From an uncultured Candidatus Peribacteria bacterium (GTDB lineage: Bacteria; Patescibacteriota; Gracilibacteria; UBA4473), in assembly GCA_964509975.1 (NCBI GenBank), contig CAZDZO010000001.1, positions 4,006 through 68,005 of the forward strand: 64,000 bases of DNA, given 5' to 3'. A model generated the notes under the pieces. It had not been told where the DNA came from and did not search any database. It worked only from the letters and a program-made list of their open reading frames with translations. Positions within the stretch are counted from its first letter, which is position 1. Each line of letters starts with the position of its first letter. Positions 1-63,738 of this stretch are shown one piece after another. The position numbers were made by a program, and so were the translations under genes.

Positions 1-326
1 TGACCTGGGTTGAAATTGCAAAAGTAGCCACCAAGTTACACCAACTCAAACAACAATTTTTATTGTCCGTGTTAACCGACCCCCAAGGTATGGTCGCGCA
101 TCTCAAAAAAACTCTGCCAGACATAATTCCGGCAATTGATCAAACTTGGGAACAGGTTCAAGACCGCATCGCCAATGCTGATGACCGAGAAAAAGGGGCG
201 ATTACTGCTTCTGTGATATTAAGTTTAATTCCTTTGGGAAAGATTGACAAAGCCAGCAAGCTTACTGTTTGGGTCGGCGACATCGCCGGAGCACTTAATA
301 AATTTGTCCCGCAATCCGTTCGTTAA
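1..326 (+). CDS. hypothetical protein, C-terminal fragment entering from the window edge
   Basis: The frame of ORF 63..326 has no stop back to nt 3, so the gene probably begins upstream of the window. No motif recognised. Confidence 0.35.
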   Translation, partial: TWVEIAKVATKLHQLKQQFLLSVLTDPQGMVAHLKKTLPDIIPAIDQTWEQVQDRIANADDREKGAITASVILSLIPLGKIDKASKLTVWVGDIAGALNKFVPQSVR

Positions 327-1423
327 ATCTCAATTTTCTGCACAGGATGGGAGAAGTTTTCGAAATGAGACTCGTGTGTAGTCGTAAAAAATATCTGAGA
401 TTCGTTGCAGAGATTTTCCAAATAATTCTGACGCGATTGGTCAAGTTCTGAAAACACATCATCTAGAAGGAGAATCGGGCTCGGTCCGCCAAGCGCTTTG
501 AGAATGTGCTTTTGTGCGGCCAGCATCGCCAACATCACCGACCGTTCTTCCCCTCGTGAAGCGGTGGAAAGAATGGGTTTGTCACGATAATAAAATACAA
601 AGTCATCACGATGAGGTCCGAAAAGACATTTTCCTGCTGCCTGTTCTCGGGCTGAATTTTTGGTAAAGAAATCGAGTACAAACTCTTTTGTCATTTCTGA
701 AGAAGTAAAAACTTCCGCTATTTCAAGTCTCACCTCGATCGTGTCAGTTGTTCGTGAGAGGCCTTGCAGTTCCTTTTGGAGTAAGGGGTTTAGTTCTGCA
801 AGAAACTCTTGTCTCACCTGCACCAAAAGCGGAATAGTCTCTGCTAGGATTTTGTTCCACGGGGCAAGTAAACTGGGATCCGGATCCCACCCCGGATTCG
901 GATCCGAAGTCGGATCCGGATCCCGAAAGGATTTCAAAAGAGCATTTTTTTGCTTCAAGGCACGATTGAACTTCATGAGATTCTCGCGGTAGTGAGGAGA
1001 GATTTGAAACAAAAATCGATCAAAGAATCGTTGTCGATTTCTTTTGGTTCCCGAGAACAACATCAAGTGCTCAGGGACAAAAAGAAGTGTCGGGATTTTT
1101 CCAAAGTGCTGACGAAGGGAAACTTTCTTAGCGTTTTTTTCAAATACGCGAGAACGGGGCGCTATTTTTGCTTCATATAAGTTTCCATTATCGAGTGTTG
1201 CTTGAATGACTCCTGTTCCAGCCTTGGAATTTTCTCGAATCAAATCTTCGCTACTGGTTTCTCTCCAACTTTTGCCCACACTTAGAATTGAGAGAGCTTC
1301 TAGGATATTCGTTTTTCCTTGTCCGTTCCCCCCATAAAAAACCACATTTTTTTCGGTAAATTCAAAATGTTTTTCTTCGTAATTCCGGAAATCAAAAAGG
1401 GAAAGTTTCTCTATCATTGTCAT
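323..1423 (-). CDS. recF: DNA replication/repair protein RecF, carrying a 16-aa repeat-derived insert
   Basis: N-terminal Walker A 'VVFYGGNGQGKTNILEALS' and C-terminal 'ILLLDDVFSELD', typical of RecF. ATG at 1423. Confidence 0.9.
   Translation of the reverse strand: MTMIEKLSLFDFRNYEEKHFEFTEKNVVFYGGNGQGKTNILEALSILSVGKSWRETSSEDLIRENSKAGTGVIQATLDNGNLYEAKIAPRSRVFEKNAKKVSLRQHFGKIPTLLFVPEHLMLFSGTKRNRQRFFDRFLFQISPHYRENLMKFNRALKQKNALLKSFRDPDPTSDPNPGWDPDPSLLAPWNKILAETIPLLVQVRQEFLAELNPLLQKELQGLSRTTDTIEVRLEIAEVFTSSEMTKEFVLDFFTKNSAREQAAGKCLFGPHRDDFVFYYRDKPILSTASRGEERSVMLAMLAAQKHILKALGGPSPILLLDDVFSELDQSRQNYLENLCNESQIFFTTTHESHFENFSHPVQKIEI
876..923. repeat. GGATCC-family palindromic element, 48-nt long form, in frame inside recF
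   Basis: GGATCCGGATCC-CACCCCGGATTC-GGATCC-GAAGTC-GGATCCGGATCC. 45/48 nt identical to the intergenic copy at 2095-2142. Confidence 0.9.
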
Positions 1424-1442: not shown

Positions 1443-1469
1443 GAGTTCGAACTCTAAGAGTTCGAACTC
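1443..1469 (+). repeat. REP-like doublet GAGTTCGAACTC-TAA-GAGTTCGAACTC
   Basis: Two perfect 12-nt palindromes separated by TAA, about 10 nt past the RAYT stop. The same doublet occurs at 2023, 7095 and 7592. Confidence 0.85.
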
Positions 1470-1479
1470 GGTATCAGTA

Positions 1480-2013
1480 TTATTCGAAATAGGGATTAAA
1501 TTCCAATTCATTGGGATACGTATCCGGACCATAGATCGCTGGCACATAGGAAGAATATTCCCATTCCTCTGGCTTGCGCACAATGTCATGTTTCACTGCA
1601 TTCCATTCGATGTATTGTTTGAGTTGAAGAATATAGTCTGAATCATCAGCAAGCTTGGCTTTAAATTTTCCTTCAAAGACGAGCCCTTTCCCCTCTTTAT
1701 ACCGGCTACTAAAATACGCTGCATAGGCTTGCTGAAGTTTCCTCATAAATACCGATATTTGTTCTGCTGTTTTGGGATCCGGATCCGGGGTCGGATCCGG
1801 ATCCCGTTCCAGAAGCAAAAAATGAAAATGATTTGGCAATAAACACCAAGCATATATTTCGATGTGTGGACAATTCTTTTTGAAACGGGCGATATTGTCA
1901 TAAAAACGCTCGTAATCTCCATGACGAAAAAAGAGTTTCTGCTTATCACATCCCCTATTGTATATGTGATAGAGATTGTTTTTTTCGAAAACGAGAGTTC
2001 TGTTTGCTGACAT
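1480..2013 (-). CDS. REP-associated tyrosine transposase (RAYT; IS200-like Y1 HUH family, COG1943-like)
   Basis: HUH motif in 'YAWCLLPNHFHFLLLE' and Tyr helix 'QYIEWNAVKHDIVRKPEEWEYSSY'. Single gene flanked by REP doublets. Contains a 10-aa DPDPTPDPDP repeat insert. Confidence 0.8.
   Translation of the reverse strand: MSANRTLVFEKNNLYHIYNRGCDKQKLFFRHGDYERFYDNIARFKKNCPHIEIYAWCLLPNHFHFLLLERDPDPTPDPDPKTAEQISVFMRKLQQAYAAYFSSRYKEGKGLVFEGKFKAKLADDSDYILQLKQYIEWNAVKHDIVRKPEEWEYSSYVPAIYGPDTYPNELEFNPYFE
1514..1525. repeat. 12-nt perfect palindrome GGATACGTATCC (TACGTA-core variant)
   Basis: Identical 12-mer at 7158-7169 and 29225-29236. Here it encodes DTYP near the RAYT C-terminus. Confidence 0.7.
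1775..1804. repeat. GGATCC-family element, 30-nt short form, in frame inside the RAYT gene
   Basis: GGATCCGGATCC-GGGGTC-GGATCCGGATCC. Confidence 0.9.
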
Positions 2014-2022
2014 ATTTACCTA

Positions 2023-2044
2023 CGAACTCTAAGAGTTCAAACTC
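2023..2044 (+). repeat. REP-like doublet, 5'-truncated (CGAACTC-TAA-GAGTTCAAACTC)
   Basis: Lies about 10 nt upstream of the RAYT start and matches the right three quarters of the doublet. Confidence 0.75.
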
Positions 2045-2094: not shown

Positions 2095-2142
2095 GGATCC
2101 GGATCCCAGCCCGGATTCGGATCCGGGGTCGGATCCGGATCC
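2095..2142. repeat. GGATCC-family element, 48-nt long form, intergenic
   Basis: GGATCCGGATCC-CAGCCCGGATTC-GGATCC-GGGGTC-GGATCCGGATCC. Confidence 0.9.
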
Positions 2143-2160
2143 GAATCTGAACCAAACATC

Positions 2161-2211
2161 AAAAAAACCCCACTCGAGTATATATCCTCGAGCAGGGTTT
2201 CTTCTTTTTTT
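2161..2211. terminator. bidirectional hairpin terminator candidate downstream of the S-layer gene
   Basis: AAACCC..CTCGAG-tatatatc-CTCGAG..GGGTTT stem, flanked by an A-run on one side and a T-run on the other. Confidence 0.45.
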
Positions 2212-2264: not shown

Positions 2265-2294
2265 GGATCCGGATCCCCAAGGGGATCCGGATCC
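2265..2294. repeat. GGATCC-family element, 30-nt short form, intergenic
   Basis: GGATCCGGATCC-CCAAGG-GGATCCGGATCC. Confidence 0.9.
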
Positions 2295-2362: not shown

Positions 2363-5300
2363 TTATTTTTGAAGACGTTTACCATTTGTATCTACGTCAA
2401 GCAAGTAACCGTTCAACCAGTCAGCTGTAGTGTCTGAGTGAGAAGGATCTGATTCATCAGACCAAGCAACGGTGTCTGTTGATTTTGTAGATTTGATACC
2501 TGGTGCTTCGTAAGCAGTATCTCGTTCGAGAGTCACTGTTACACCATCTGAGTTCTCAGCACTTCCACCAAGTTCGTCTGTTAGACTTGTGAACACGGCG
2601 TAAGTTCGTGATTCACCAGCAGCGAGTCGTTCACCTGTAAGGGTTACTTTAACTACTGCTGAAGTATCGTCATCAGCGATTGCTGAACTTGCAGCTGTCG
2701 TGAATGATTGTTCAACATCAGGTGATCCGTCTACAACTCGTTGAGTTGTAAGAGCAGCAACACCAGAGAATCCCAATCCGTTCAATGACACTGTCATAGT
2801 TACGTGTCCGATTTCAGCGTTATCTGCTGAATCAGCAGTAATAGTGAATCGGTAGAACTCTGTAGAATCTGCAGAAGGCAAATTCATTGAAGGCTGTGTA
2901 GCGGCAGGTGAGATAGACAAAGCAGTGTTGTAAGCAACATATACTTGTCCTACTGCGTCTCCCCATCCAGCTGTTGGTTTGGTGATATCATCACCTGTAG
3001 CAGCTGTAACCGCTTCTACACCAGCGTGAGTAGCATTGTCAGCATCCAAAGCCAGTTGCAATTTAGCACCTGTTTGGTTTGCTTTTGAGATGTTTCGAAT
3101 GTCAGCTTTAACTATTACAAACGTTGAATCATCTTTTGGTACTCGAATTCGATCAGCGTTAGCCATTTCGAAATGCAATGATCCGCCAGCCATTGTTTCT
3201 TCTTGAATCAATTGACCGGCTTCGTTGTACAATTTGAAGTCCATTCGGTCTCCAGCGTATGGAGATGCCGTAAGATCATTCTCAATGTACAAGTCTTTAA
3301 TTTGTACTTCGTCATCAGCAGCGTTGAATCGAACTTTCAATACTTCAACATTTGATTGACCAGCAATCAAAATATCTGAAGCCACTGTAGAGTCCAATGA
3401 CACTGTCAATGTACCAGATGAAACAATTTCAAATGCTGTACCATCTACTTCATTTGAAGTAGAAATTGCAAGTACTCCGTTATCAGTAACGGTAACAACT
3501 TGTCCGTTTTCTACATTGTCTGCATCCACATCTTCCAAATCAAGTTCGAGTTGGTGTTTGAGGGTAGCAGTATGTGCTGTTTCAGTAGCAACACCAGCTG
3601 TGGTGTTAACATCTGTAATCGCACCTGTAGATACGGCAACAGCTGAGTTAACATTTCCAATGATAAACGGTGTAGCGGCTTCTGTGAAGATAACTTCATC
3701 CGTTGCACCAGAAATTGTGTATCCCGTAAGTGTTGCAGCAGCTGCTCGGATAAGTGCTGCATCTGCAGCAACTGTTCCTCCTACTTGCACGGAAGCAACT
3801 CCACCATCACAAGTAGCATCTGAAGTGGCACCTGTTGTAAATGTAATAACACAAAGAGTGTTTGGTACATCATCTGTAAGGGTCACTGTAGTTGTATTTG
3901 CCATGATTGTATCAACAGTCATAGTTGTAACACCAGCTGTACCAGCAACGGCAGCACCGTGAACGGCAACCGTTCCAGTAGTTGTAATAACTCCTGTTGT
4001 AGTATTGATGGCGGTAACAGCCAAAGCTCGGTCTGTTGTTGTCAATGTGCCAACAGCTGTTGTTGGATCTACATTTTCAACTACATCCAAGACATCACCA
4101 ACTGTAAGCAATGCTGCATTAGCCGTAGAAACGGTAACGCTTGTATCTGCTACAGCTGCTGTAGTACTTCCTGTAACGATAGAAGCTGATGCTTCAATCG
4201 TATCTACAACCACAACGAATTCTTTTTGTGAAGCTGATGGAATCACAACAGACAAGTCGTTGAATGTTGCTTTACCAGTGGTTTCATCAAGGTTCTTTGC
4301 AGATCCTTGTTGTGTACCATCTACGAATACAGCCAATGTGAAGTTTTCGTATGATCGAGCTGATCCTGAAACACCGTATGTTGAGTGAACTGTGTTAACA
4401 TCAGTGTTTGCTCCTACTGTCATAGAAGTAACATTTACGTCTCCTGAGTCGTTGTTATCCATAGTCAATTCCATGAATGTAACATCATCAACTCCTGCAA
4501 CGAGTTTGTCACCATCTGATAAACCTGAAGTTTCTGTAACAGTTACAATTGAGTCTTGTACAGTCACGAATGATCCTGTAGCAGATCCCAAAAGTCCTGA
4601 ATCAGCCACTTGGTCTCCAGTAGAAATGTATTCTGGTGATTGGAAGTCAGCAGATGCGATTTCCAATTTCAATTTGTCGCCATCAGCCGCAGCGTCTGCG
4701 ACATTAGCCACTACTTTCAAAATTGACGTTCCCGCAATTTCGAATGTTGTGTTGAAGTTCAATGTGTAGTTTGTCACTACAGCTGTTGTTCCTGATTTGT
4801 AAGCGAAGTCGTTCTCTGTGTCGACCAATTGATCGTTTAAGAACATTCGGAAGTTATCAAACACTGCGTTCATTTGAGCGAGTGTTGTAGCTGATCCGTT
4901 TCCTCCTGTTTCAGATCCTGAAGCAACATCGATGTAAACACCATCCACCAAGAGTGGTTGGTCTACAACCAATCGAGCTGTCAACATAACAACATCATTT
5001 GATCCAGCAGAGTATTCTTGATTTCCAAGTGATGAAGGATCACGTGAAACGTTCAAGTCTCCTGAGTCAATAGTGTATGTAGATAATGTAGCGTAACTAT
5101 CTTCAGCGTTGTTTCCTGATGAATCAATAGCTTTCACTCCGAATGAAGTTCCGATCTCAACTCCTACGATGTCTTCGTAGTTGTCTATCTTAAAGATAAT
5201 AGTATCAGAAGCTTCAGCAGAAACGATGTCTGCACGAAGAGAGAAGATCTTAGAGTCTCCGTCCTCAAGAACGTATCCTCCAGTCACTCCGTTGTCCAAT

Positions 5301-6685
5301 CGGAAAGTCAAGTAGTCACCATCCATGATTGATTCTGCAGATACTTGTTCACCTGAAACGTACAAAGCGACGTTTTCAAGATTATCTTCAAGTTCAGCTG
5401 TACCATCATTTTTGAAAGTAACCGCTCGTAGTTCAACATCTTTGTTCGTGTTAGACCCATTAAGCAATCGGAATTTACCGATCTCAATGAAGTTGTCTCC
5501 CACATCGATAGTTGTGTTTGATCCCAAGCTTGAGAAAGTCAAAGTTGAAACTTCATAGTCAGCAACTTCCATTTCTTCCCCTTCAATTGGAAAGTCTCCT
5601 ACAACGTTAACAGCGCTAGAAGCGACGTCATCCGCACTAACCAAAGCCATTCGACTGTGGTGTCCTACGTTTTTGTCGTCATCTCCTCCTGAGTTACAAC
5701 TACCAACACAAGTGTATTTAGCAGAAGCCACTACATCAGCGATGAGTGTTTGTCCTGCAGGCACTACTACTGGTGGGTTGAATCGAAGCTCAACAATGTC
5801 GTCGTTGTTAATAGATTTGTCGTTTCCAACTTTGAATCCATCAATTTCGAGCCATACATTATCGAAGTCGTCGTTATCTCCCAATCCCAAACGAGTGTAT
5901 GTCATAGAAGAAACTTCTACGTCAGAGTCGTCTGAAGCTGTGAGTTCAACTGTCAAGTAAGGTACTGAAGTTGAGTTGTAAGGAACGTTTGTTCCTCGTG
6001 GAGTCAAATCTGAAAGGGTAACTTCAAGAGTTCCTTCAGATGGTCCAATAATAGGTGCTACAACAAGTTGTGAGTTGTATGTAATGTGTGCAGTTTCAGC
6101 ACGAGTCACAGCGTTAGCTGGACCGAATGTACCGTCACCGTATCCACGCATCAACCCGTTGTTGTATGCTGTTTCAACGTATCCGTAAAACCAGTCGCTA
6201 TCAGAAACATCATCAAAGTGAGGTGCTCCTGAAAGGTCTTGATCAATCTCGAATGCGTTTACAACCATTTTCGCAATTTCAACTCGGTTGATACCAACTC
6301 CTGGTCGGAAAAGTCCGTCCGGGTATCCGTTGATCCATCCGTAGTTGTACATTGTTTCAACATAGTCGTAATACCAAGCGTCTGTTGATACGTCTGGGAA
6401 GTGAGGACCTCCTGTTGTATCAAAGTCTACGCCTGAAGCGAGAACGATGATTTTTGAAACTTCTGCCCGATTCAATTGTCGGTTTGGTGCAAAAGATCCA
6501 TCATCATTTCCGCTCAAAACCCCTTGGTCCATAAGCTCTTCTACAGCTTCTTCGGCCCAAGATGGGATTTCTGCTGCATCAGTGAATGGCAACATCGCAC
6601 TTGCTACTGGAGCAAAGATTGTGAATGCCATAGCTACGAAAGCTACTGATGCAACGCTTTTTTTAAGTTGACTAAATAAGTCCAT
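2363..6685 (-). CDS. S-layer-type surface protein with signal peptide and three N-terminal SLH domains
   Basis: ATG at 6685 gives the signal peptide 'MDLFSQLKKSVASVAFVAMAFTIFAPVASA'. Three SLH repeats follow ('FTDAAEIPSWAEEAVEEL..', 'FPDVSTDAWYYDYVETMY..', 'FDDVSDSDWFYGYVETAY..'), then about 1200 aa rich in T/V/A/D and likely beta-rich. The ORF track starts further upstream at a TTG. Confidence 0.8.
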   Translation of the reverse strand: MDLFSQLKKSVASVAFVAMAFTIFAPVASAMLPFTDAAEIPSWAEEAVEELMDQGVLSGNDDGSFAPNRQLNRAEVSKIIVLASGVDFDTTGGPHFPDVSTDAWYYDYVETMYNYGWINGYPDGLFRPGVGINRVEIAKMVVNAFEIDQDLSGAPHFDDVSDSDWFYGYVETAYNNGLMRGYGDGTFGPANAVTRAETAHITYNSQLVVAPIIGPSEGTLEVTLSDLTPRGTNVPYNSTSVPYLTVELTASDDSDVEVSSMTYTRLGLGDNDDFDNVWLEIDGFKVGNDKSINNDDIVELRFNPPVVVPAGQTLIADVVASAKYTCVGSCNSGGDDDKNVGHHSRMALVSADDVASSAVNVVGDFPIEGEEMEVADYEVSTLTFSSLGSNTTIDVGDNFIEIGKFRLLNGSNTNKDVELRAVTFKNDGTAELEDNLENVALYVSGEQVSAESIMDGDYLTFRLDNGVTGGYVLEDGDSKIFSLRADIVSAEASDTIIFKIDNYEDIVGVEIGTSFGVKAIDSSGNNAEDSYATLSTYTIDSGDLNVSRDPSSLGNQEYSAGSNDVVMLTARLVVDQPLLVDGVYIDVASGSETGGNGSATTLAQMNAVFDNFRMFLNDQLVDTENDFAYKSGTTAVVTNYTLNFNTTFEIAGTSILKVVANVADAAADGDKLKLEIASADFQSPEYISTGDQVADSGLLGSATGSFVTVQDSIVTVTETSGLSDGDKLVAGVDDVTFMELTMDNNDSGDVNVTSMTVGANTDVNTVHSTYGVSGSARSYENFTLAVFVDGTQQGSAKNLDETTGKATFNDLSVVIPSASQKEFVVVVDTIEASASIVTGSTTAAVADTSVTVSTANAALLTVGDVLDVVENVDPTTAVGTLTTTDRALAVTAINTTTGVITTTGTVAVHGAAVAGTAGVTTMTVDTIMANTTTVTLTDDVPNTLCVITFTTGATSDATCDGGVASVQVGGTVAADAALIRAAAATLTGYTISGATDEVIFTEAATPFIIGNVNSAVAVSTGAITDVNTTAGVATETAHTATLKHQLELDLEDVDADNVENGQVVTVTDNGVLAISTSNEVDGTAFEIVSSGTLTVSLDSTVASDILIAGQSNVEVLKVRFNAADDEVQIKDLYIENDLTASPYAGDRMDFKLYNEAGQLIQEETMAGGSLHFEMANADRIRVPKDDSTFVIVKADIRNISKANQTGAKLQLALDADNATHAGVEAVTAATGDDITKPTAGWGDAVGQVYVAYNTALSISPAATQPSMNLPSADSTEFYRFTITADSADNAEIGHVTMTVSLNGLGFSGVAALTTQRVVDGSPDVEQSFTTAASSAIADDDTSAVVKVTLTGERLAAGESRTYAVFTSLTDELGGSAENSDGVTVTLERDTAYEAPGIKSTKSTDTVAWSDESDPSHSDTTADWLNGYLLDVDTNGKRLQK

Positions 6686-7094
6686 TTTAAGCGTTTTTAA
6701 TAAATAGTAATAATCGCCCGCCATAAGCAGGCGAGTGAATTTGTTTTCATTTCTCTCTAGAAAAGAGGTCTTCAAGCGAGTTCTAAATGAGTATCCCAGA
6801 ACTCTCGACTGTCTCTTCCGGCCACGAGTTTCAAAGACCGAGATCTTTTAGCGCGCGATAGAATGGTTATTGAAAGCCCCCTTTCGAACCATTTTACAGG
6901 CGAGACGGGAACCCCGGCTGGGGGCAAGCCGTCTAAATCTTTGGAACCCTACACGGAGAGCGGAAAAAGTCAAGTTTTTCTAACACTCCGCCGCTAGAAA
7001 ATTCCAGTTATTCAAACGGACGATTCGTTACTTTGTTACGCTGTTTTAGACTTTTCTTGTTGACAGGGTCTCTAATTTGTTTTCTGGGACTCTT

Positions 7095-7122
7095 CAGTTC
7101 GAACTCTTTAGAGTTCAAACTG
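7095..7122 (+). repeat. REP-like doublet CAGTTCGAACTC-TTTA-GAGTTCAAACTG
   Basis: Degenerate copy of the doublet. It overlaps the last four codons and the stop of CDS 7108..7578. Confidence 0.75.
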
Positions 7123-7578
7123 TTTGCAAAATTTCTCAATTTCTGTTTTTGAGTTTGGGATACGTATCCACCTCGAATCCGAAATTTCCGACGCTTCCTC
7201 TTCCCCAAAGTTCTCAATAATATCTACGCTCACCTGCACAGACTGTTGCAAGTACTCCAAAGACTGCTTTGTTTCCTTGAGCGCATTCGCCGTTTTCATT
7301 ACCGATCCCTCGATTTTATTAAATCGCCGACTGCCTTCTCCTGCTGTTTGGGATAAATCTGTTTTTAATTTCTGAAGTTTTTTTTCCAAATACACTTGCC
7401 GTTGTTCGAGCTCTCCCACTTTAGTCTTCTCTAAAAATTCCCCCAAAAGTCCCACCTCCTCACGCTCTGGTTCCAAAAATGCTTGCGCTTTCTGCCAAGA
7501 AGACGAAATGTCAATATATTGAGAAAGCACTATTCCAATCGTGATAAAAAAGACAAGCACAAAAAGTCGTTTGATCAT
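7108..7578 (-). CDS. membrane-anchored coiled-coil protein, paralogue A
   Basis: 'MIKRLFVLVFFITIGIVLS' TM anchor followed by a coiled-coil-like body. Paralogous to 7629..7985. The C-terminal ~30 aa are encoded by repeat sequence. Confidence 0.6.
   Translation of the reverse strand: MIKRLFVLVFFITIGIVLSQYIDISSSWQKAQAFLEPEREEVGLLGEFLEKTKVGELEQRQVYLEKKLQKLKTDLSQTAGEGSRRFNKIEGSVMKTANALKETKQSLEYLQQSVQVSVDIIENFGEEEASEISDSRWIRIPNSKTEIEKFCKQFEL
7158..7169. repeat. GGATACGTATCC palindrome inside the 3' end of CDS 7108..7578
   Basis: Exact 12-mer, read as WIRIP. The downstream ~14 nt weakly resemble the long-form GGATCC element. Confidence 0.6.
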
Positions 7579-7591
7579 TCTTATTTTTTAA

Positions 7592-7618
7592 GAGTTCGAA
7601 CTCTAAGAGTTCAAACTC
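7592..7618 (+). repeat. REP-like doublet GAGTTCGAACTC-TAA-GAGTTCAAACTC
   Basis: Sits between the two tandem paralogues. Confidence 0.85.
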
Positions 7619-7628
7619 GAAATGCAAA

Positions 7629-7985
7629 CTAGAATCCCAAACTATCCTTTGTTTTTTCTGTCGATTCTTGCAGGTTTTCAATAGCTTTTTGCGTGTCTTC
7701 GATTGCCTGCTTTGTCTCCATTACAGAAGTTTCTATTTCTTCAAATTTCGCTGTCCCTTCTTCGACTTTTGCCTCAAGAGACTTTGTCAGTGTTGATAAT
7801 TTTTTTTCTAACTTTTCTTTCTGACTCAAAAGTTCTTTAATCTCAATATCTTTAAAAAGCTCCACGCCAAATTCATTTTCCAAAAAAAGCTGAGCCTTTT
7901 TCCAAGCCCCTTCTAAGTCCACATTATTTGACATCAAAATTCCGCCCCCGATCAAAACCAGAAGTACGAATAGTCTTTTTATCAT
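7629..7985 (-). CDS. membrane-anchored coiled-coil protein, paralogue B
   Basis: 'MIKRLFVLLVLIGGGILMS' TM anchor. Alignable with 7108..7578 over the N-terminal ~110 aa. Confidence 0.6.
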   Translation of the reverse strand: MIKRLFVLLVLIGGGILMSNNVDLEGAWKKAQLFLENEFGVELFKDIEIKELLSQKEKLEKKLSTLTKSLEAKVEEGTAKFEEIETSVMETKQAIEDTQKAIENLQESTEKTKDSLGF

Positions 7986-8366: not shown

Positions 8367-8396
8367 GGGATCCGGATCCGAGGTCGGATCCGGATC
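8367..8396. repeat. GGATCC-family element, 30-nt short form, intergenic
   Basis: GGATCCGGATCC-GAGGTC-GGATCCGGATCC. Confidence 0.9.
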
Positions 8397-8405
8397 CCAA
8401 AATAT

Positions 8406-20188: not shown

Positions 20189-21439
20189 CTAAGTTCTGAT
20201 CTGAAAGATCTCTGCCGAATTTGGATTGGCAAGGAGTCTATTTTGTAAAACCTTATCGACCGTTTCTTTTGAAGCTTCTTTGAAGTTCCAGCATCGGAAG
20301 ATACGAACTCTTACCTCTGTATCAAACATTGTTGAAAGCTTCTCACTAAGCGCCACCGCTGAGTCGTCTTCAAAGGGAAGGACTGCATATTTGAATTCAA
20401 CGGATCCGGATCCCGACTCAATAAGCACCTCTTTATTTGGGTTATAAATCAATCCAGATTCAAACAATTTTTTCTTGGGATCCGGATCCCCTTCAACTTC
20501 AATTTCATACAAGAAAGATTTTTCAAATTCTATTTTTTCACCCGCAATATTGCTGGCAGTTTGTGAAACAGAAAAAGCTTCGTTATCCGTGATAAGGAGT
20601 TTCTTTTCCATCACAATCGCAACTTCTTTAAGTTCTAGAGTTGGTGTTTCTGGAACTTCAACTTTACTAAAATCTCCAATTTCAACACTTTCCGGAGAAC
20701 GTCCTGCTTTAATCCATTCGTTCATTGATTTCATAATCTGGTCTCCATCACATGAAGCATAAAACCGCTCAGGATGGGGCATAATCGCACCCACTGTTCC
20801 CTCCTTGTTTACTATCATTGCGGTAGCGAAAAGAGCTCCGTTTGGAGTAATTGGAAAATTTGCGTCGACATTTCCTTCCTCATCACAGTATCGGAACGCC
20901 ACTTGACTTCCTTCTTCAAGAACTCGTAAAGCTGTTTTATCAATTGATGTGAATCGTCCTTCTCCATGTGCCACTGGCACCTTCAATAATTCTGAAACGT
21001 TATGAGAAAACGCCGTATCTTTTCGTTCTGGTTTGATATTTACCCACACATTGTAGTACCCCGTTCCGAGTACTTTTCCTTCCTTGTCTCGGCGAACATT
21101 GTCGGCGAGCGAGAATGGCACAGGGTTGTCTCCGACCGGAATCAATCCTGATTCTACAATCATTTGAGCTCCATTACACACCCCAAGAATCACTTTTCCT
21201 TTCTTGGCTTCTTCTCGAATAGCGTCGAATATTTTTTCTCGTGCGGCAATTGATCCTGATCGTCCTCGATCTTCAAATGAAAATCCTCCAATCAAAAAAT
21301 ATGCATCAAAGTTTCCTATTTTTTCAATTTCGTTCCAAAGCACGAGTTCTGCTTCAAATCCATTTCTTTCTGCCGCACGAATAGATTCTGATTCGCAATT
21401 ATTTCCAGGGAACGTGATAACGGCAAGTTTTGGGGTCAT
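20189..21439 (-). CDS. purQ: FGAM synthase glutaminase PurQ fused to two tandem PurS-like domains
   Basis: ATG at 21439 ('MTPKLAVITFPGNNCE'). 'LGVCNGAQMIV' holds the Cys nucleophile; 'AHGEGRF' and 'MPHPER' are also present. C-terminal ~165 aa contain two PurS-like repeats, ending 'GLIYNPNKEVLIE' and 'LLANPNSAEIFQI'. The longer ORF-track N-terminus overlaps rmuC and is rejected. Confidence 0.8.
   Translation of the reverse strand: MTPKLAVITFPGNNCESESIRAAERNGFEAELVLWNEIEKIGNFDAYFLIGGFSFEDRGRSGSIAAREKIFDAIREEAKKGKVILGVCNGAQMIVESGLIPVGDNPVPFSLADNVRRDKEGKVLGTGYYNVWVNIKPERKDTAFSHNVSELLKVPVAHGEGRFTSIDKTALRVLEEGSQVAFRYCDEEGNVDANFPITPNGALFATAMIVNKEGTVGAIMPHPERFYASCDGDQIMKSMNEWIKAGRSPESVEIGDFSKVEVPETPTLELKEVAIVMEKKLLITDNEAFSVSQTASNIAGEKIEFEKSFLYEIEVEGDPDPKKKLFESGLIYNPNKEVLIESGSGSVEFKYAVLPFEDDSAVALSEKLSTMFDTEVRVRIFRCWNFKEASKETVDKVLQNRLLANPNSAEIFQIRT
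20402..20413. repeat. single GGATCCGGATCC unit in frame (GSGS) in the PurS-like region
   Basis: Exact 12-mer. Confidence 0.8.
20478..20489. repeat. single GGATCCGGATCC unit in frame (DPDP) in the PurS-like region
   Basis: Exact 12-mer, 64 nt from the unit at 20402. Confidence 0.8.
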
Positions 21440-21506
21440 TTGTGAGCGAATTGTAAGGCAAAATGCATTTTTAAAAAAGTAAAAAATCGGTACACTCTTC
21501 GCGCAC

Positions 21507-22553
21507 ATGGAGATAATCTTAATAGTTGTTGGGGTATTAATACTCGCTGGAATTGGGCTGGTTTTTTGGAAGCTAAATTCTTCGGGAGAAAACGGGAACC
21601 TGTTGAATGAATTAAAACAAGACCGAGAAACACGATTTCGAGAAGCCGAAAGTTTGCGAAATGAGATGAGAGAAAGTTCAAAAATACTTCGAGAACAATT
21701 TGATCGAGTGAATAAAACGGTAGATACAAAATTATCAGACTCTTCAAAACAATTGAACGAACGACTCGATAAATCCTCTAATGTGATTGGAAATTTGCAA
21801 AAAGAACTCGGGAAAATGGGAGAAATTGGGTCAAAAATTGAAAATCTCGATAAAATCCTCCGTGCCCCAAAAGGCCGTGGTGGAATGGGAGAAGAGAGTT
21901 TGGAAGAAATTTTGCGATCAGTATTTCCAGCAAATTTATGGGAACGACAATTTAATCTTGGAACGGGACTCGTGGTAGATGCGGTTGTGAAAACTTCCAG
22001 TGGGATTATCCCTATTGATGCCAAATTTCCGCTTCCCGCATTTGAAAGAATTGTACAAGCAGAAAATGATGATGCATTGGAAAAAGCGCAGAAGGAATTT
22101 CAAAAAGATATGAAACTTCGAATTGATGAAGTTGCGAAATATATTCGTCCAGAGAAGGAAACGATGGACTTTGCAATTCTCTTTTTGCCAAACGAAAACG
22201 TGTACTACGAAGCTGCGATTCGTTCTGGGGAAATCAGTGAATACACAAAGAAAAAGAAGGTCCTCCTCACGGGGCCAAACACGATGCTCTACGTACTTCA
22301 AATGTTATTTCAGGCGTATCAAAGTCAAGAATTCGCTCGTGAAGCACAACACGCATTGGCAGAGCTTTCAGGGGTAAAGAAGCAAGCTGAACGACTGGAT
22401 GAAGAAATTGGAGTTTTAGCAAAACACATCGGAAATGCGAACTCGAAAGTGTCTGACGTACAAGGGGAAAACATGAAACTTCAAAATCAAGTCGAACGAG
22501 CGCAAGCGCTTGAATCCGACCTTACACAACCACAACAAGATAAACTTCTTTAA
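21507..22553 (+). CDS. rmuC: DNA recombination protein RmuC
   Basis: N-terminal TM segment, coiled coil, then 'LRAPKGRGGMGEESLEEIL' and 'VDAVVKTSSGIIPIDAKFP', typical of RmuC. Confidence 0.8.
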   Translation: MEIILIVVGVLILAGIGLVFWKLNSSGENGNLLNELKQDRETRFREAESLRNEMRESSKILREQFDRVNKTVDTKLSDSSKQLNERLDKSSNVIGNLQKELGKMGEIGSKIENLDKILRAPKGRGGMGEESLEEILRSVFPANLWERQFNLGTGLVVDAVVKTSSGIIPIDAKFPLPAFERIVQAENDDALEKAQKEFQKDMKLRIDEVAKYIRPEKETMDFAILFLPNENVYYEAAIRSGEISEYTKKKKVLLTGPNTMLYVLQMLFQAYQSQEFAREAQHALAELSGVKKQAERLDEEIGVLAKHIGNANSKVSDVQGENMKLQNQVERAQALESDLTQPQQDKLL

Positions 22554-29224: not shown

Positions 29225-29236
29225 GGATACGTATCC
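29225..29236. repeat. GGATACGTATCC palindrome immediately downstream of the lepA stop
   Basis: GGGATACGTATCCC lies 3 nt past the lepA stop codon. Confidence 0.6.
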
Positions 29237-29239
29237 CTA

Positions 29240-31048
29240 TTATTTTTTCATCATAGCAAAAAATGCATCTTGGGGGATTGTCACCTTCCCAAACTGTTTC
29301 AGTCGCTTTTTTCCTTTCTTTTGTTTCTTAAGAAGTTTATTTTTTCGAGTCACATCACCTCCGTACAACTTCGCCGTCACATCTTTTCGCATGGCAGAAA
29401 TTGTCGTTCTCGCCAGAATCCGCGCTCCAATAGTCGCCTGAATCGCAATTGCAAACTGTGCTTTTGGAATAATTTCCTTGAGTCGCTGACACCATTCTAA
29501 ACCAATGTTGTACGCTCCATCTTTATGCACGATCTGACTCAGTGCGTCTACTCGGTCTCCCGCAACTAATATATCAAGTCTCACTAGATCTTCCGTACGA
29601 AGCTCAATTGGCTCGTATGACATGGAGGCATATCCAGACGTGAGTGATTTCAGGTCATCATAAAAGTCCGTGATAATTGAAGCGAGTGGAATTTCAAAAA
29701 AGAGTTCTACTCTCGTTGGGTCTGTGTACTGAAGGTTTTTGTGTATCCCCCGACGCTGTGCGCAAAGTTCCATGATCGCACCAACGAAGTCTGAAGGGGT
29801 AAGAATCACAATCTTCATCCACGGCTCTTGTATCTCTAAATAATGTCCAGCCTCAGGCAATTCTCCAGGGTTTGAAATTGTTTTTTTCGTTTTGTCGTTC
29901 AGCACAACATCATAAGAAACCGACGGCGCCGTTACCAAAAGATCAAGGTCAAATTCTCGTTCGAGTCGCTCCTGAACAATGTCGAGATGAAGTAAACCCA
30001 AAAATCCCACTCGAAATCCATGTCCCAAAGCGCCAGAATGTTCTGGAGTAAATTGCAATGACGCATCATTGAGAGCGAGTTTTTCCAATGCTTTCCGAAG
30101 GAGTGAAAAATCATCTCCACTCGTTGGGTAAATACCGGCAAATACAAAAGGCGTCACTTCTTTATATCCGGGAAGTGGCATAATTTTATCGCCTTCTTTT
30201 TCTTTCCCTTGCCAGAGCGTTTCTCCTACTTTTGCGTCAACAACGTTCTTCAGCCCCGTGACAACATATCCCACTTCGCCTTCTTTGAGAGACTGGGTTG
30301 GGGAATATTGCGGATTTAGAAATCCTACTTCGATTGCTTCGATTTGGCGTCCTGTTTTTAGCAACCGAAGCTTGTCTCCTTTTTTAATTTCCCCTTGAAA
30401 CACGCGCACACTCGATACCACTCCTCGATAGGAATCAAAAGTGGAATCAAAAATGAGCGCTTTTGTTTCTCCTTCTGTGAAAACATTGTCCGCATTCTCA
30501 AAGACTTCGTTTTTGTCCGGGAGTGGAACACGCTCAATAATTCTGTCAAGCAAGGCAGGTACTCCTGTCCCTTCTTTTCCTGACACTTGCAGGATATCTT
30601 CTGCGGTAAATCCCAGAAGCTTTTCTATTTCCATGGCACGACGTTCTGGTTCTGCAGCAGGAAGATCAATTTTATTAAGTACCGGAATAATGGTAAGTCC
30701 GTGTTCGAGTGCAAGAAATACATTTGCCAATGTTTGTGCTTCAATTCCCTGTGTGGCATCTACCACAAGAATCGCTCCCTCACACGCTGCCAAAGAGCGT
30801 GAAACTTCATAAGAAAAATCCACATGCCCCGGAGTATCAATCAAATTAAGTTGTGTACCCTTCCAACCCATTCGAACAGGTTGGAGCTTGATTGTAATTC
30901 CTCGTTCTCGCTCCAAATCCATCGTATCAAGCAACTGTTCTTTCATCTCTCTTTTGTCGATGGTTCCAGTTGTTTCCAAAAATCTGTCGGCAAGTGTTGA
31001 TTTCCCGTGATCGATATGCGCAATGATGCAAAAATTTCGTATATCCAT
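29240..31048 (-). CDS. lepA: translation elongation factor 4 (LepA)
   Basis: ATG at 31048 gives 'MDIRNFCIIAHIDHGKSTLADR'. 'DTPGHVDF' and 'NKID' are present, along with the LepA C-terminal domain. Confidence 0.93.
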   Translation of the reverse strand: MDIRNFCIIAHIDHGKSTLADRFLETTGTIDKREMKEQLLDTMDLERERGITIKLQPVRMGWKGTQLNLIDTPGHVDFSYEVSRSLAACEGAILVVDATQGIEAQTLANVFLALEHGLTIIPVLNKIDLPAAEPERRAMEIEKLLGFTAEDILQVSGKEGTGVPALLDRIIERVPLPDKNEVFENADNVFTEGETKALIFDSTFDSYRGVVSSVRVFQGEIKKGDKLRLLKTGRQIEAIEVGFLNPQYSPTQSLKEGEVGYVVTGLKNVVDAKVGETLWQGKEKEGDKIMPLPGYKEVTPFVFAGIYPTSGDDFSLLRKALEKLALNDASLQFTPEHSGALGHGFRVGFLGLLHLDIVQERLEREFDLDLLVTAPSVSYDVVLNDKTKKTISNPGELPEAGHYLEIQEPWMKIVILTPSDFVGAIMELCAQRRGIHKNLQYTDPTRVELFFEIPLASIITDFYDDLKSLTSGYASMSYEPIELRTEDLVRLDILVAGDRVDALSQIVHKDGAYNIGLEWCQRLKEIIPKAQFAIAIQATIGARILARTTISAMRKDVTAKLYGGDVTRKNKLLKKQKKGKKRLKQFGKVTIPQDAFFAMMKK

Positions 31049-31115
31049 TCGGGCGCGATAGTACCCAAAAACCGCTGACTTGCAACTTCTGCCCCCTCCT
31101 TCTACAATAAATCTG

Positions 31116-31637
31116 ATGCAAAAAAAGAACGGATTCTCCCTTCTTGAACTCCTCATTGTAACGGGGATTGTTGCCTTACTCGCTGCTATCTCTGTACCAA
31201 ACTACATGAGAATGCGAAGTTTTTCATCTTTCAATGACGAAGTAAATCTCATCTTTGATCAATTTTTGGAAGTGCGCACAAATGCACTCACTGGAAAAAT
31301 GTGTAACAACAGTCCTAGTTTAAAATGGATTTTCACATTAGATCAAAATTCTTCTCAAATCTTGTGTCAAAACAGTGCTGAAGAGATTGCTACAGCAGAT
31401 TATGATGTCATTTGGCGCAATACACAACAAATAGAGCTCGATGATGGGGTTGCTTATTATGCACGTGTAGAATTCCTCCCTGACACGACTCAAGCCACTA
31501 TACCTGTCGAATCTGTTCAATACACTGATTTAAAAATTTTATTAGAACATTCTTCCGGTCGTCAGCGAACTATTTGTTTTAATCGCATCGCAGGAATTCC
31601 TGAAATTTCTTCTGGAAACATTGATTGCACCCCCTAG
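31116..31637 (+). CDS. type IV pilin-like protein (prepilin N-terminal motif)
   Basis: 'MQKKNGFSLLELLIVTGIVALLAAI', a class III signal peptide. Confidence 0.75.
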   Translation: MQKKNGFSLLELLIVTGIVALLAAISVPNYMRMRSFSSFNDEVNLIFDQFLEVRTNALTGKMCNNSPSLKWIFTLDQNSSQILCQNSAEEIATADYDVIWRNTQQIELDDGVAYYARVEFLPDTTQATIPVESVQYTDLKILLEHSSGRQRTICFNRIAGIPEISSGNIDCTP

Positions 31638-47649: not shown

Positions 47650-47679
47650 GGATCCGGATCCCCCTAGGGATCCGGATCC
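47650..47679. repeat. GGATCC-family element, 30-nt short form, between convergent rny and trmB (likely a bidirectional terminator hairpin)
   Basis: GGATCCGGATCC-CCCTAG-GGATCCGGATCC. Its last base overlaps the trmB stop codon. Confidence 0.85.
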
Positions 47680-63268: not shown

Positions 63269-63343
63269 TCCCGGGTAGCTCAGTGGTAGAGCAATTGGCT
63301 GTTAACCAATTGGCCGCCGGTTCGAATCCGGCCCCGGGAGCCA
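63269..63343 (+). tRNA. tRNA-Asn (anticodon GUU), CCA encoded
   Basis: Hand-folded cloverleaf: acceptor TCCCGGG/CCCGGGA, anticodon stem ATTGG/CCAAT with loop CTGTTAA, T arm GCCGG-TTCGAAT-CCGGC. Confidence 0.92.
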
Positions 63344-63702: not shown

Positions 63703-63738
63703 AAGTACGTACACGAATACGTATTCGAATACGTACTT
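63703..63738. promoter_or_regulatory. three tandem 12-nt TACGTA-core units (near-palindromic 36-mer) upstream of the AbrB-like gene
   Basis: AAGTACGTACAC-GAATACGTATTC-GAATACGTACTT, 12 nt upstream of the start codon. The middle unit is a perfect palindrome. Confidence 0.5.

What the first reader, a model, noticed from the sequence alone, without database searches (positions are those of the whole stretch)
1443..2044. RAYT-type HUH tyrosine transposase bracketed by REP doublets made of 12-nt perfect palindromes
ORF 1480..2013(-) has the IS200-like Y1 signature: HUH in 'YAWCLLPNHFHFLLLE' and a tyrosine helix 'QYIEWNAVKHDIVRKPEEWEYSSY'. It stands alone, with no IS ends. About 10 nt beyond each end lies the same doublet, GAGTTCGAACTC-TAA-GAGTTC(G/A)AACTC (1443-1469, and a 5'-truncated copy at 2023-2044). 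Further copies occur at 7095-7122 and 7592-7618. All four have the same polarity: spacer TAA/TTTA on the plus strand and, in three of them, an asymmetric second half containing TTCAAA. A domesticated RAYT flanked by its REP/REPIN hairpins is the established arrangement in Proteobacteria. Here it sits in what looks like a reduced CPR-like genome, next to a second palindrome family that invades coding sequence. That makes it a candidate self-contained repeat-dispersal system in a lineage where I am not aware of one being described.
Basis: partly seen in the sequence, partly recalled or inferred. Interest (0 to 1): 0.8.

Follow-up and report, generated by a model that had tools for sequence, protein, structure and literature searches.

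The report
Domesticated transposase ringed by hairpin repeats
A small uncultured bacterium of the candidate phyla radiation keeps a single-copy, REP-associated-type tyrosine transposase gene, and short palindromic DNA hairpins cluster around and inside that gene and even sit in frame in the neighbouring repair gene recF, so a repeat system known from large genomes also exists, in a miniature form, in this reduced lineage.

Summary
ORF 1480-2013(-) is an intact Y1 HUH transposase of the RAYT/TnpA-REP type. Its best sequence and fold match is E. coli TnpA-REP (4ER8). GAGTTCGAACTC doublets lie about 10 nt from both ends and at 7095 and 7592.

Comparison with 12 related genomes (Peribacteria/Gracilibacteria) shows:
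- The gene sits at a fixed position (SLH protein - RAYT - recF) and is under purifying selection (dN/dS 0.07-0.15).
- It is always accompanied by 27-30-nt hairpins with a 12-bp stem and a CG centre.
- A relative without the gene has none of these hairpins in the syntenic 21 kb.

The interpretation needs three corrections.
1. The window holds three families. Eleven of 15 element loci lie within 8.4 kb of the gene (P = 1.6e-7). This is a local cloud, not genome-wide dispersal.
2. In 13 of 14 related genes a hairpin sits in frame in the loop after the HUH strand. The loop family is the locus's dominant family in 11 of 12 genomes. By that rule the probable current partner here is GGATCCGGATCC. GAGTTCGAACTC looks like an older, conserved flank.
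3. In-frame REPs inside RAYT genes and inside repair genes are already described.

Verdict: a new variant of a known kind, in an undescribed lineage.

The parts
1480..2013 (-). RAYT/TnpA-REP-type Y1 HUH tyrosine transposase gene, 177 aa (HUH = H62/H64, catalytic Tyr = Y134)
   Evidence: Pfam Y1_Tnp 31.4 bits against a cut-off of 23. NCBIfam REP_Tyr_transpos 54.5 bits, below the cut-off of 80. Best PDB sequence hit 4ER8. AF2 model pLDDT 86.4; best fold match 4ER8, E 9.4e-9. Catalytic residues invariant in 26 homologues.
1443..1469 (.). F1 hairpin doublet GAGTTCGAACTC-TAA-GAGTTCGAACTC between the transposase stop codon and the recF start
   Evidence: Folds as a 12-14-bp stem, dG -12 to -13 kcal/mol, z -6.3 to -6.6. 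Same position and same 3' flank (AGAATATGATA) as in relative L019.
2023..2044 (.). 5'-truncated F1 doublet (CGAACTC-TAA-GAGTTCAAACTC), 9 nt upstream of the transposase ATG
   Evidence: It folds only weakly: dG -3.9, z -1.2.
1775..1804 (-). F2 hairpin doublet GGATCCGGATCC-GACCCC-GGATCCGGATCC, in frame in the transposase (peptide DPDPTPDPDP). It lies in the loop between the HUH strand and the following helix.
   Evidence: dG -18.5 kcal/mol. The loop is the lower-confidence stretch of the model. 13 of 14 related genes carry palindrome units at the same loop.
1514..1525 (.). Single F3 unit GGATACGTATCC in the C-terminal tail of the transposase (peptide DTYP)
   Evidence: The C-terminal tail is a second hot spot in relatives.
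876..923 (-). F2 triplet in frame in recF (peptide DPDPTSDPNPGWDPDP), at a hot-spot linker that holds other families in relatives
323..1423 (-). recF, the conserved downstream neighbour and recipient of in-frame hairpin insertions
   Evidence: Pfam SMC_N/AAA_23 on the called gene. Homologues are named RecF by their sources.
2095..2142 (.). F2 triplet, intergenic, upstream of the transposase
   Evidence: dG -23.8.
2265..2294 (.). F2 doublet, intergenic, downstream of the SLH-protein gene
7095..7122 (.). F1 doublet whose loop supplies the stop codon of ORF 7108..7578 (…QFEL*)
   Evidence: dG -9.3.
7158..7169 (.). Single F3 unit inside ORF 7108..7578
7592..7618 (.). F1 doublet between ORF 7629..7985 and ORF 7108..7578
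   Evidence: dG -8.8.
8368..8397 (.). F2 doublet, intergenic between the PKD-protein gene and the 106-aa ORF. Relatives hold F1 or F4 at the same intergenic site.
   Evidence: dG -23.7.
20402..20489 (-). Two single F2 units in frame in ORF 20189..22024 (peptides GSGS and DPDP); distal copies
29225..29236 (.). Single F3 unit just 3' of gene 29240..31156; distal copy
47650..47679 (.). F2 doublet between convergent genes; distal copy

Best explanation
The ORF is a domesticated, vertically inherited Y1 HUH transposase of the RAYT/TnpA-REP kind, in a Peribacteria-like CPR bacterium. It is the hub of a local REPtron: a cloud of 27-30-nt hairpin cassettes. Each cassette is two 12-nt arms around a 3-6-nt loop, and every stem is centred on CG.

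Proposed mechanism, by analogy with E. coli TnpA-REP and IS608/ISDra2 TnpA: the protein binds these hairpins when the DNA is single-stranded, cuts and rejoins at their feet, and so copies or moves them. Movement is mostly over short distances, about 10 kb or less.

Insertions survive in two kinds of place: in intergenic spacers next to gene 3' ends, and in permissive protein loops, in the reading frame that gives hydrophilic peptides. The permissive loops seen here are the recF linker and the transposase's own loop and tail.

Stem sequences turn over between sister genomes while the architecture stays the same.

In this window the family most likely in current use is GGATCCGGATCC (F2), which derives from GGATACGTATCC (F3) by one symmetric base-pair change. 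GAGTTCGAACTC (F1), which directly brackets the gene, is an older and partly decayed flank, shared with distant relatives.

Shown: protein identity and conservation, hairpin structure, association, local clustering, and occupancy of orthologous sites.
Inferred: catalysis on these hairpins, the mode of spread, and which family is the present substrate.
For: Protein:
- Pfam Y1_Tnp above its cut-off.
- TnpA-REP is the best sequence and fold match.
- HUH motif NHFH and Tyr motif Y---N are the class-2 (RAYT) signatures, not IS200's DH[VI]H and Y---Q (PMC6006769).
- dN/dS is 0.07-0.15 among orthologues.

Domestication:
- One copy in the window.
- Same slot, SLH - RAYT - recF - der - mur ligase, in more than 10 genomes.

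Association:
- Every one of 14 related genes in 12 genomes has palindrome units within 150 nt and/or in frame in its loop.
- Arrays of 7-11 units lie directly upstream in L007/L029, L017 and L027.
- L055 and L057 have the palindrome only at the gene itself, within 12-20 kb of sequence.
- L056 keeps the downstream synteny but lacks the gene. It has no repeated palindrome in 21 kb.

Local cloud:
- 11 of 15 loci lie in the first 8.4 kb of 64 kb, P = 1.6e-7.
- 5 of 5 strict F1 doublets on a 112-kb contig lie within 7 kb of the gene.

The hairpin is the selected unit:
- In L026 the arms are not self-palindromic (GGATTCGTATCC / GGATACGAATCC) but stay complementary.
- The outermost F1 pair covaries, G-C in 21 and C-G in 5 of 33 doublets, and pairing falls to chance outside the stem.
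- dG is -9 to -24 kcal/mol.

Mobility:
- A clean presence/absence difference at POTRA|M17.
- Different families at identical intergenic and recF sites.

F2 as partner:
- It is in the loop, the most abundant family (14 exact units against 4 F1 and 3 F3) and the least decayed.
- F2 copies share the loop GAC(C/T)(C/T)C.
Against: - No biochemical data exist for any member of this clade.
- No insertion or deletion at any palindrome between strains at 98.4-100% identity over 12 kb, so there is no sign of recent activity.
- Copy numbers are small, and whole-genome counts could not be made.
- The immediate flanks of this particular gene are F1, not F2.
- The link between transposase lineage and repeat family is loose. 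Two transposases that are 80% identical (L029_1, L027_1) carry different families, and an NJ tree gives no clean clade-to-family map.
- The protein lacks the Pro of Y---NP.
- On a weak alignment it also lacks the E. coli residues that read GTAG, and the repeats have no GTAG tag.
- The negative control is a single genome locus.
Confidence: 0.62

Rival explanations
1. The transposase's cognate repeat is GAGTTCGAACTC (F1), which brackets it. GGATCCGGATCC is an unrelated second family that happens to invade coding sequence, including this gene.
For: - F1 lies about 10 nt from both ends.
- The F1 doublet between the gene and recF is conserved in position in L019 and resembles the one in Gracilibacteria locus L017.
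- F1 flanks orthologues in L007/L029, L019, L024 and L017.
Against: - In those relatives F1 is also in the gene's loop. Here the loop holds F2.
- F1 in the window is decayed: 3 perfect 12-mers of about 7.6 units, one copy truncated. It is absent from the other 56 kb.
- The nearest relatives by sequence (L025, L027_2, L029_2, 62-66% identity) carry F3 in the loop, and F3 is one symmetric pair away from F2. L025 is surrounded by F3, not F1.
Confidence: 0.2
2. The palindromes are spread or maintained by something other than this protein. Candidates are DNA-uptake-type signal sequences, binding sites of a dimeric protein, or RNA hairpins selected at gene ends. On this view the transposase gene is only a tolerant landing site or has another cellular role.
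For: - Families differ between sister genomes like 'dialects', and they occur in both coding and non-coding DNA.
- Intergenic copies sit at gene 3' ends with a fixed loop polarity.
- One transposase coexists with three families.
- There is no strain-level polymorphism.
Against: - An 18-fold excess near the gene instead of an even spread.
- Arrays abut the gene, and in L055 and L057 units occur only at the gene.
- The elements are absent from the gene-less relative L056.
- A separate canonical hairpin-plus-T-run terminator follows the SLH gene at about 2150-2200(-), so the palindromes are not needed as terminators.
Confidence: 0.12
3. An ordinary active IS200/IS605 insertion sequence.
For: Pfam family Y1_Tnp is named 'Transposase IS200 like'. 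IS608 and ISDra2 transposases are secondary fold matches.
Against: - Single copy, with no tnpB.
- Same chromosomal slot across genomes whose dS is 0.6 or more.
- Class-2 motifs (NHFH, Y---N) instead of DH[VI]H and Y---Q.
- The two flanks are the same symmetric hairpin, not distinct left and right ends.
Confidence: 0.02

Closest known systems
E. coli TnpA-REP (RAYT, YafM) with its REP/BIME 'REPtron' (PDB 4ER8)
   Same: - Best sequence and fold match.
- HUH plus a single catalytic Tyr.
- Single-copy gene flanked on both sides by the hairpin repeats.
- Repeats mostly at gene 3' ends. Repeat ends can supply stop codons (PMC3733652; window 7107-7110).
   Different: - Only about 19% identity, and below the NCBIfam equivalog cut-off.
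- Y---NA instead of Y---NP.
- No GTAG tag on the repeats, and the GTAG-reading residues are apparently not conserved.
- The repeats are perfect 12-bp-stem hairpins without a bulge. They are low-copy and concentrated within about 10 kb of the gene rather than spread over the chromosome.
- The host genome is small. Class-2 genes are reported mainly from large genomes (PMC6006769).
TnpA-Y1 subclass 2.4 of Quentin et al. 2018 (Bertels group 4; Cyanobacteria, Bacteroidetes and others)
   Same: - HuH motif NH[IFV]H.
- Variable insertion between beta3 and alphaC.
[quoted passage not shown]
- 'Double-foot' symmetric REPs (PMC6006769).
   Different: - The W motif is FE rather than WQ, and the Y motif is YIEWNA rather than YIxNNP.
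- The repeats have no GT[AG]G feet.
- Membership could not be tested by phylogeny because no reference sequences were available. No CPR members are mentioned in the paper.
REPINs and RAYTs of Pseudomonas/Enterobacteria (Bertels and Rainey)
   Same: - The mobile unit is a doublet that folds into one long hairpin.
- One family per transposase paralogue, with several paralogues per genome (tandem pairs in L029 and L027).
- The transposase is single-copy and vertically inherited (PMC5581495 abstract).
   Different: - The units here are much shorter (27-30 nt in total).
- Each arm is usually itself a palindrome.
- Tens of copies at most seen per locus, against hundreds per genome.
- Frequent in-frame coding insertions.
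Rickettsia palindromic elements (RPE) and intragenic REPs in repair genes
   Same: Palindromic repeats inserted in frame in functional genes. Many lie in replication and repair genes (PMC3733652); here the gene is recF.
   Different: RPEs are longer, and a RAYT partner in Rickettsia was not looked into here. In this case a transposase gene lies at the centre of the cloud.
IS200/IS605 TnpA (IS608, ISDra2)
   Same: Same fold and catalytic chemistry. Hairpin recognition on single-stranded DNA is the model for the mechanism proposed here.
   Different: Not an insertion sequence: single copy, fixed locus, no tnpB, class-2 motifs.

Membership tests
Y1 HUH transposase superfamily (Pfam PF01797) | Profile match above the curated cut-off | tested here: met
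   31.4 bits against a cut-off of 23; residues 14-136 cover profile positions 6-119 of 121.
Y1 HUH transposase superfamily (Pfam PF01797) | HUH motif and a single catalytic Tyr on the C-terminal helix | tested here: met
   H62-F-H64 and Y134 are invariant in 26 homologues. They align with HMH and Y115 of 4ER8.
Y1 HUH transposase superfamily (Pfam PF01797) | Fold | tested here: met
   AF2 model pLDDT 86.4. Foldseek top hit 4ER8, E 9.4e-9, TM 0.61/0.65, followed by ISDra2, IS608 and IS200 TnpA.
RAYT / TnpA-REP (class 2 of Quentin et al. 2018) | Y-motif signature Y---NP, as opposed to Y---Q in IS200 | tested here: inconclusive
   The motif is YIEWNA. Y and N are invariant, but Pro is replaced by Ala in most of this clade; a few relatives have NP. 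It is not Y---Q.
RAYT / TnpA-REP (class 2 of Quentin et al. 2018) | Low copy number and vertical inheritance; no IS ends and no tnpB | tested here: met
   One copy in 64 kb. Same slot in more than 10 genomes. dN/dS 0.07-0.15.
RAYT / TnpA-REP (class 2 of Quentin et al. 2018) | Gene flanked by copies of a hairpin repeat that also occurs elsewhere in the genome (REPtron) | tested here: met
   Flanks at 1443-1469 and 2023-2044, with further copies at 7095 and 7592. The same holds for orthologues. Dispersed copies without the gene occur in relatives.
RAYT / TnpA-REP (class 2 of Quentin et al. 2018) | NCBIfam equivalog NF047646 (REP_Tyr_transpos) cut-off | tested here: not met
   54.5 bits against a cut-off of 80, although it is the only NCBIfam hit.
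RAYT / TnpA-REP (class 2 of Quentin et al. 2018) | Cleavage and joining of cognate REP single-stranded DNA | not testable with these tools
   Needs purified protein and oligonucleotides.
Canonical REP sequences | Conserved 5' GT[AG]G (or CGTC) tag at the foot of the hairpin | tested here: not met
   In 33 non-redundant F1 doublets there is no conserved tetranucleotide. Pairing and conservation end at the 12-bp stem.
Canonical REP sequences | High copy number spread over the chromosome | tested here: inconclusive
   Only 64 kb of this genome could be read, holding 15 loci of which 11 are within 8.4 kb of the gene. Relatives show the same local bias. Whole-genome counts were not possible.
Canonical REP sequences | 20-40-nt palindromic unit, mostly extragenic, near gene 3' ends | tested here: met
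   27-30-nt hairpins. 8 of 15 loci are intergenic or at a gene's 3' end; the rest are in frame.
REPIN (doublet forming one long hairpin) | Two units in inverted orientation that pair with each other | tested here: met
   L026 arms GGATTCGTATCC / GGATACGAATCC are complementary but not self-palindromic. Predicted 12-20-bp stems. Covariation of the outer pair.
IS200/IS605 insertion sequence | Multiple near-identical copies, distinct left and right subterminal hairpins, often tnpB; motifs DH[VI]H and Y---Q | tested here: not met

The most novel reading that the evidence does not exclude
In Peribacteria-like CPR bacteria the domesticated transposase keeps a copy, perhaps the master copy, of its current hairpin substrate inside its own reading frame, in the loop after the HUH strand. 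From there it seeds a short-range cloud of hairpin cassettes, about 10 kb or less in reach. These cassettes overwrite one another at fixed intergenic sites and at in-frame sites such as recF. The stem sequence can therefore switch between sister genomes (GAGTTC…, GGATAC…, GGATCC…, AACCCGGGTT, AACCCCGGGGTT) while the 12-bp, CG-centred architecture and the sites stay the same. That would make this a compact natural series for studying how RAYT specificity and REP families are born, replaced and lost.
Probability: 0.3. Interest if true: 0.75.

Novelty: new variant of a known kind. Interest (0 to 1): 0.6.

Why it matters
How REPs spread is still unresolved even in E. coli. This clade offers a miniature version that should be easier to work with:
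- The hairpins are 27-30 nt and have no GTAG tag.
- There are only a few tens of copies.
- The copies show a steep gradient around the transposase gene.
- Sister genomes hold different stem sequences at the same sites.

Together these make substrate specificity, cis-preference and family replacement directly testable with short oligonucleotides and a 177-aa protein.

The finding also extends RAYT/REP systems to the candidate phyla radiation. Those genomes are about 1 Mb, whereas non-IS Y1 genes were reported to favour large genomes (PMC6006769).

On the practical side, annotators of CPR genomes should expect DPDP, DTYP, SSNSKSSN and NPG/EPGF peptide inserts and spurious N-terminal extensions caused by these elements.

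Tried and rejected
- Strain-level polymorphism. Five contigs are 100% identical. A 98.4% strain differs only inside the SLH-protein gene and has no indel at any palindrome. No evidence of recent movement.
- A clean map from transposase clade to repeat family. My provisional A/B/C grouping by N-terminus did not survive an NJ tree and identity matrix. L029_1 (F1) and L027_1 (F4) are 80% identical. I replaced it with the empirical rule 'loop family = dominant family'.
- Origin or terminus proximity as an explanation for the clustering. GC skew simply follows gene orientation, so it was uninformative.
- Intrinsic terminators. Flanking A and T runs only extend the palindrome, no T-run follows the hairpins, and a separate canonical terminator exists at about 2150-2200(-).
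- Known RNA families. Only two tRNAs were found in the window.
- Whole-genome copy counts for this organism. Not possible. All contigs carrying the gene end about 3.7-3.9 kb beyond the window start, and collection scans return only 8-kb stretches. The metagenome scan did not return this organism's own contigs.
- Literature search for RAYT/REP in CPR. Nothing relevant was found.
Full report
1. WHAT IS IN THE SEQUENCE

The ORF at 1480..2013(-) encodes 177 aa with LPNHFHFLLLE and QYIEWNAVKH. A perfect doublet GAGTTCGAACTC-TAA-GAGTTCGAACTC lies at 1443-1469, 10 nt past the stop codon. A 5'-truncated copy, CGAACTC-TAA-GAGTTCAAACTC, lies at 2023-2044, 9 nt before the ATG. Further doublets lie at 7095-7122 and 7592-7618. 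All four have the same polarity, and three share the TTCAAA arm.

The 12-mer with up to one mismatch occurs 6 times against 0.21 expected. GGATCCGGATCC occurs 16 times at 8 loci against 0.07 expected. I call these families F1 (GAGTTC…), F2 (GGATCC…) and F3 (GGATAC…). F2 differs from F3 by a single symmetric pair: GGAT[C/A]CG[G/T]ATCC.

Five independent ENA/JGI contigs match the region at 100%. It is not an assembly artefact.

2. THE PROTEIN

- Pfam Y1_Tnp scores 31.4 bits, above its cut-off of 23.
- The only NCBIfam hit is REP_Tyr_transpos at 54.5 bits, below the equivalog cut-off of 80.
- The best PDB sequence hit is E. coli TnpA-REP, 4ER8. The HUH motif and Y134/Y115 are aligned.
- An AlphaFold2 model built on 26 homologues has mean pLDDT 86.4. 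Its best structural match is again 4ER8 (E 9.4e-9, TM 0.61/0.65), ahead of ISDra2, IS608 and IS200 transposases.
- H62, H64, Y134 and N138 are invariant in the family.

In the classification of Quentin et al. 2018 (PMC6006769), NHFH and Y---N are class-2 (RAYT-like) signatures. IS200 has DH[VI]H and Y---Q. Two details depart from class 2. The Pro of Y---NP is Ala here. On the weak alignment, the E. coli residues that read the GTAG tag are not conserved.

3. NOT AN INSERTION SEQUENCE BUT A FIXED HOST GENE

The window has one copy and no tnpB. In every related contig I could fetch, the gene or a tandem pair of paralogues sits in the same slot: M16 peptidase / PKD protein / small ORFs / SLH protein / transposase / recF / der / mur ligase / RRF. 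Among close orthologues dS is 0.6-0.8 and dN/dS is 0.07-0.15. This is the signature of a domesticated transposase (PMC5581495 abstract).

Record titles name the relatives as Candidatus Peribacteria and Gracilibacteria. Sources name recF homologues as Gracilibacteria. The CPR assignment therefore holds.

4. THE REPEATS ARE HAIRPINS

Each doublet folds on single-stranded DNA into one 12-14-bp stem with a 3-4-nt loop. F1 gives dG -9 to -13 kcal/mol and F2 gives -18 to -24, with z-scores of -3.3 to -8.5. Three observations show that the long hairpin is the selected unit, rather than two small ones.

- In relative L026 the arms are GGATTCGTATCC and GGATACGAATCC. They are not self-palindromic but are complementary to each other.
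- In 33 non-redundant F1 doublets the outermost pair covaries (G-C 21, C-G 5), and pairing falls to chance immediately outside the stem.
- The TTCAAA variant gives a G·T wobble on the minus strand but a C·A mismatch on the plus strand.

No GTAG or CGTC tag is present. All families seen in the clade are centred on CG: F1, F2, F3, AACCCGGGTT, AACCCCGGGGTT, GGGTCCGGACCC, AAGTCCGGACTT, GCTCCGGAGC and GGTGACGTCAC.

5. ASSOCIATION WITH THE GENE

A scan of one genome per species found the strict F1 doublet in 12 stretches. Ten were from CPR bins and two looked like chance hits in Kribbella and a Nannocystaceae bin. In L007 and L017 the doublets and arrays of 7 single units bracket transposase orthologues that are 59%, 52% and 44% identical to the window's protein.

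The table covers 14 transposase genes in 12 genomes.
- Every gene has palindrome units within 150 nt and/or inside it.
- 13 of the 14 carry one or two units in frame at residues 68-94, the loop between the HUH strand and the next helix.
- In 11 of 12 genomes the loop family is the most abundant family of the locus.

Two loci, L055 and L057, have AACCCCGGGGTT only at the gene (upstream, in the loop, in the tail and downstream) and nowhere else in 12-20 kb. One relative, L056, comes from a 1.02-Mb contig. It keeps recF-der-mur-RRF-M17 but has a tRNA synthetase gene directly upstream of recF in place of the transposase. It has no repeated palindrome in 21 kb.

6. A LOCAL CLOUD, NOT GENOME-WIDE DISPERSAL

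In the window 11 of 15 element loci lie in the first 8.4 kb. That is 13 per 10 kb against 0.7 per 10 kb elsewhere (binomial P = 1.6e-7). F1 is absent from the other 56 kb. In assembly FLOH01 all five strict F1 doublets of a 112-kb contig lie within 7 kb of the gene, and a second 124-kb contig has one. The metagenome scan returned only 25 stretches in all, most of them single distal copies. The repeats therefore do occur away from the gene, but they are few.

7. TURNOVER AND CODING INSERTIONS

Orthologous intergenic sites carry different families in different genomes. PKD|106-aa ORF has F2 in the window, F1 in L019 and L024, and F4 in L021. recF|der and M17|next gene have F4 in L021 and F3 in L025 and L019. 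POTRA|M17 is empty in L021 and holds an F3 doublet in L025.

recF has two hot-spot sites. At the second, the window has an F2 triplet (DPDPTSDPNPGWDPDP), L029 and L019 have F1 doublets (SSNSKSSN), L023 has F3 (DTYPKDTYP), L026 has a single F1 unit, and L024 has nothing.

The transposase loop shows the same variety. Family counts per locus are nearly exclusive in some genomes: L021 has F4 22 times, and L025 has F3 17 times.

8. WHICH FAMILY BELONGS TO THIS GENE?

For F1:
- It directly brackets the gene.
- The doublet upstream of recF is positionally conserved with L019 and resembles the one in Gracilibacteria.

For F2:
- It fills the gene's own loop.
- It is the most abundant family (14 exact units against 4 and 3) and the best preserved (14 of 16 perfect).
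- It was seen only in this organism among the loci I hold.
- Its copies share the loop GAC(C/T)(C/T)C.
- The nearest relatives by sequence (62-66% identity) carry F3 in the loop, and L025 is surrounded by F3.

By the 'loop = dominant family' rule, F2 is the present partner and F1 is an older flank. F1 may be left over from a lost upstream paralogue, since L029 has such a tandem pair. I hold this at roughly even odds, because lineage-to-family mapping is loose. Two transposases that are 80% identical carry F1 and F4. One protein may also accept any CG-centred hairpin.

9. COMPARISON WITH WHAT IS KNOWN

REPtrons, multiple RAYT paralogues each with its own REP family, and doublets as the mobile unit are all established (PMC6006769; PMC5581495). 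[quoted passage not shown] Intragenic REPs, many in repair genes, and REP ends that supply stop codons are described by Di Nocera et al. (PMC3733652).

What differs here:
- The lineage. I found no report for CPR. Non-IS Y1 genes were found to favour large genomes.
- The repeat anatomy: untagged, perfect 12-bp stems, each arm usually itself a palindrome.
- The steep concentration around the gene.
- The replacement of one family by another at the same sites.

10. VERDICT

I classify this as a new variant of a known kind. Catalysis on these hairpins, the mode of spread and the reason for the fixed loop polarity of intergenic copies remain inferred or unexplained.

Noticed in passing
window 1443-1469, 2023-2044, 7592-7618; L019 and L025 intergenic doublets; coding doublets in L007, L019, L023, L025, L027: Loop polarity rule. 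Intergenic F1 and F3 doublets carry TTA on the sense strand of the surrounding co-directional genes (L019 6/6, L025+L023 6/6, window 3/4). Copies inside coding sequence carry TAA on the sense strand, out of frame (F1 4/4, F3 7/7). Peptide selection can explain the coding polarity. The intergenic polarity is unexplained.
   Followed up: partly
window 7095-7122 and ORFs 7108..7578, 7629..7985: Two tandem paralogous small ORFs, both starting MIKRLFVL, are each followed by an F1 doublet. The loop of the first doublet supplies the stop codon of ORF 7108..7578 (…QFEL*).
   Followed up: partly
window 20402-20413 and 20478-20489: Two single GGATCCGGATCC units lie in frame in ORF 20189..22024. They are read in two different frames (GSGS and DPDP).
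   Followed up: partly
window 63714-63735: Overlapping palindromes CGAATACGTATTCG / TACGTATTCGAATACGTA (an F3-like GAATACGTATTC core) lie about 370 nt downstream of tRNA-Asn (63269-63343). Seen once only.
   Followed up: no
window about 5000-6500 (SLH-protein gene 2363..6775): All 138 mismatches and three indels (21, 3 and 24 nt) between this strain and the 98.4% strain L001 fall in this stretch of the surface-protein gene. The remaining 10 kb are identical. This points to a recombining or hypervariable surface-protein segment.
   Followed up: no
window about 2150-2200 (- strand): A canonical intrinsic-terminator-like hairpin followed by a T-run (AAACCCTGCTCGAGGATATATACTCGAGTGGGGTTTTTTTG) lies downstream of the SLH-protein gene. 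It is separate from the palindromic repeats. A similar structure opens locus L007.
   Followed up: no
L001 and L002 (beyond window start); L019 16174-16470: All contigs carrying this gene end about 3.7-3.9 kb beyond the window's first base, which suggests an assembly-breaking repeat there. Small stand-alone GIY-YIG ORFs occur near the locus in this organism and in L019.
   Followed up: no
L021 10001-10108; L024 10001-10117; L057 7869-8030: Gene callers gave several transposase orthologues spurious N-terminal extensions of 36-54 aa that read through the upstream palindromic doublet. P0007 at 216 aa and P0013 at 248 aa are examples.
   Followed up: partly
L008 (contig CAZTXE010000001.1, labelled Candidatus Saccharibacteria): Two strict F1 doublets and one AACCCGGGTT doublet occur in a bin labelled Saccharibacteria. 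Either the repeats reach beyond Gracilibacteria/Peribacteria or the contig is mis-binned.
   Followed up: no
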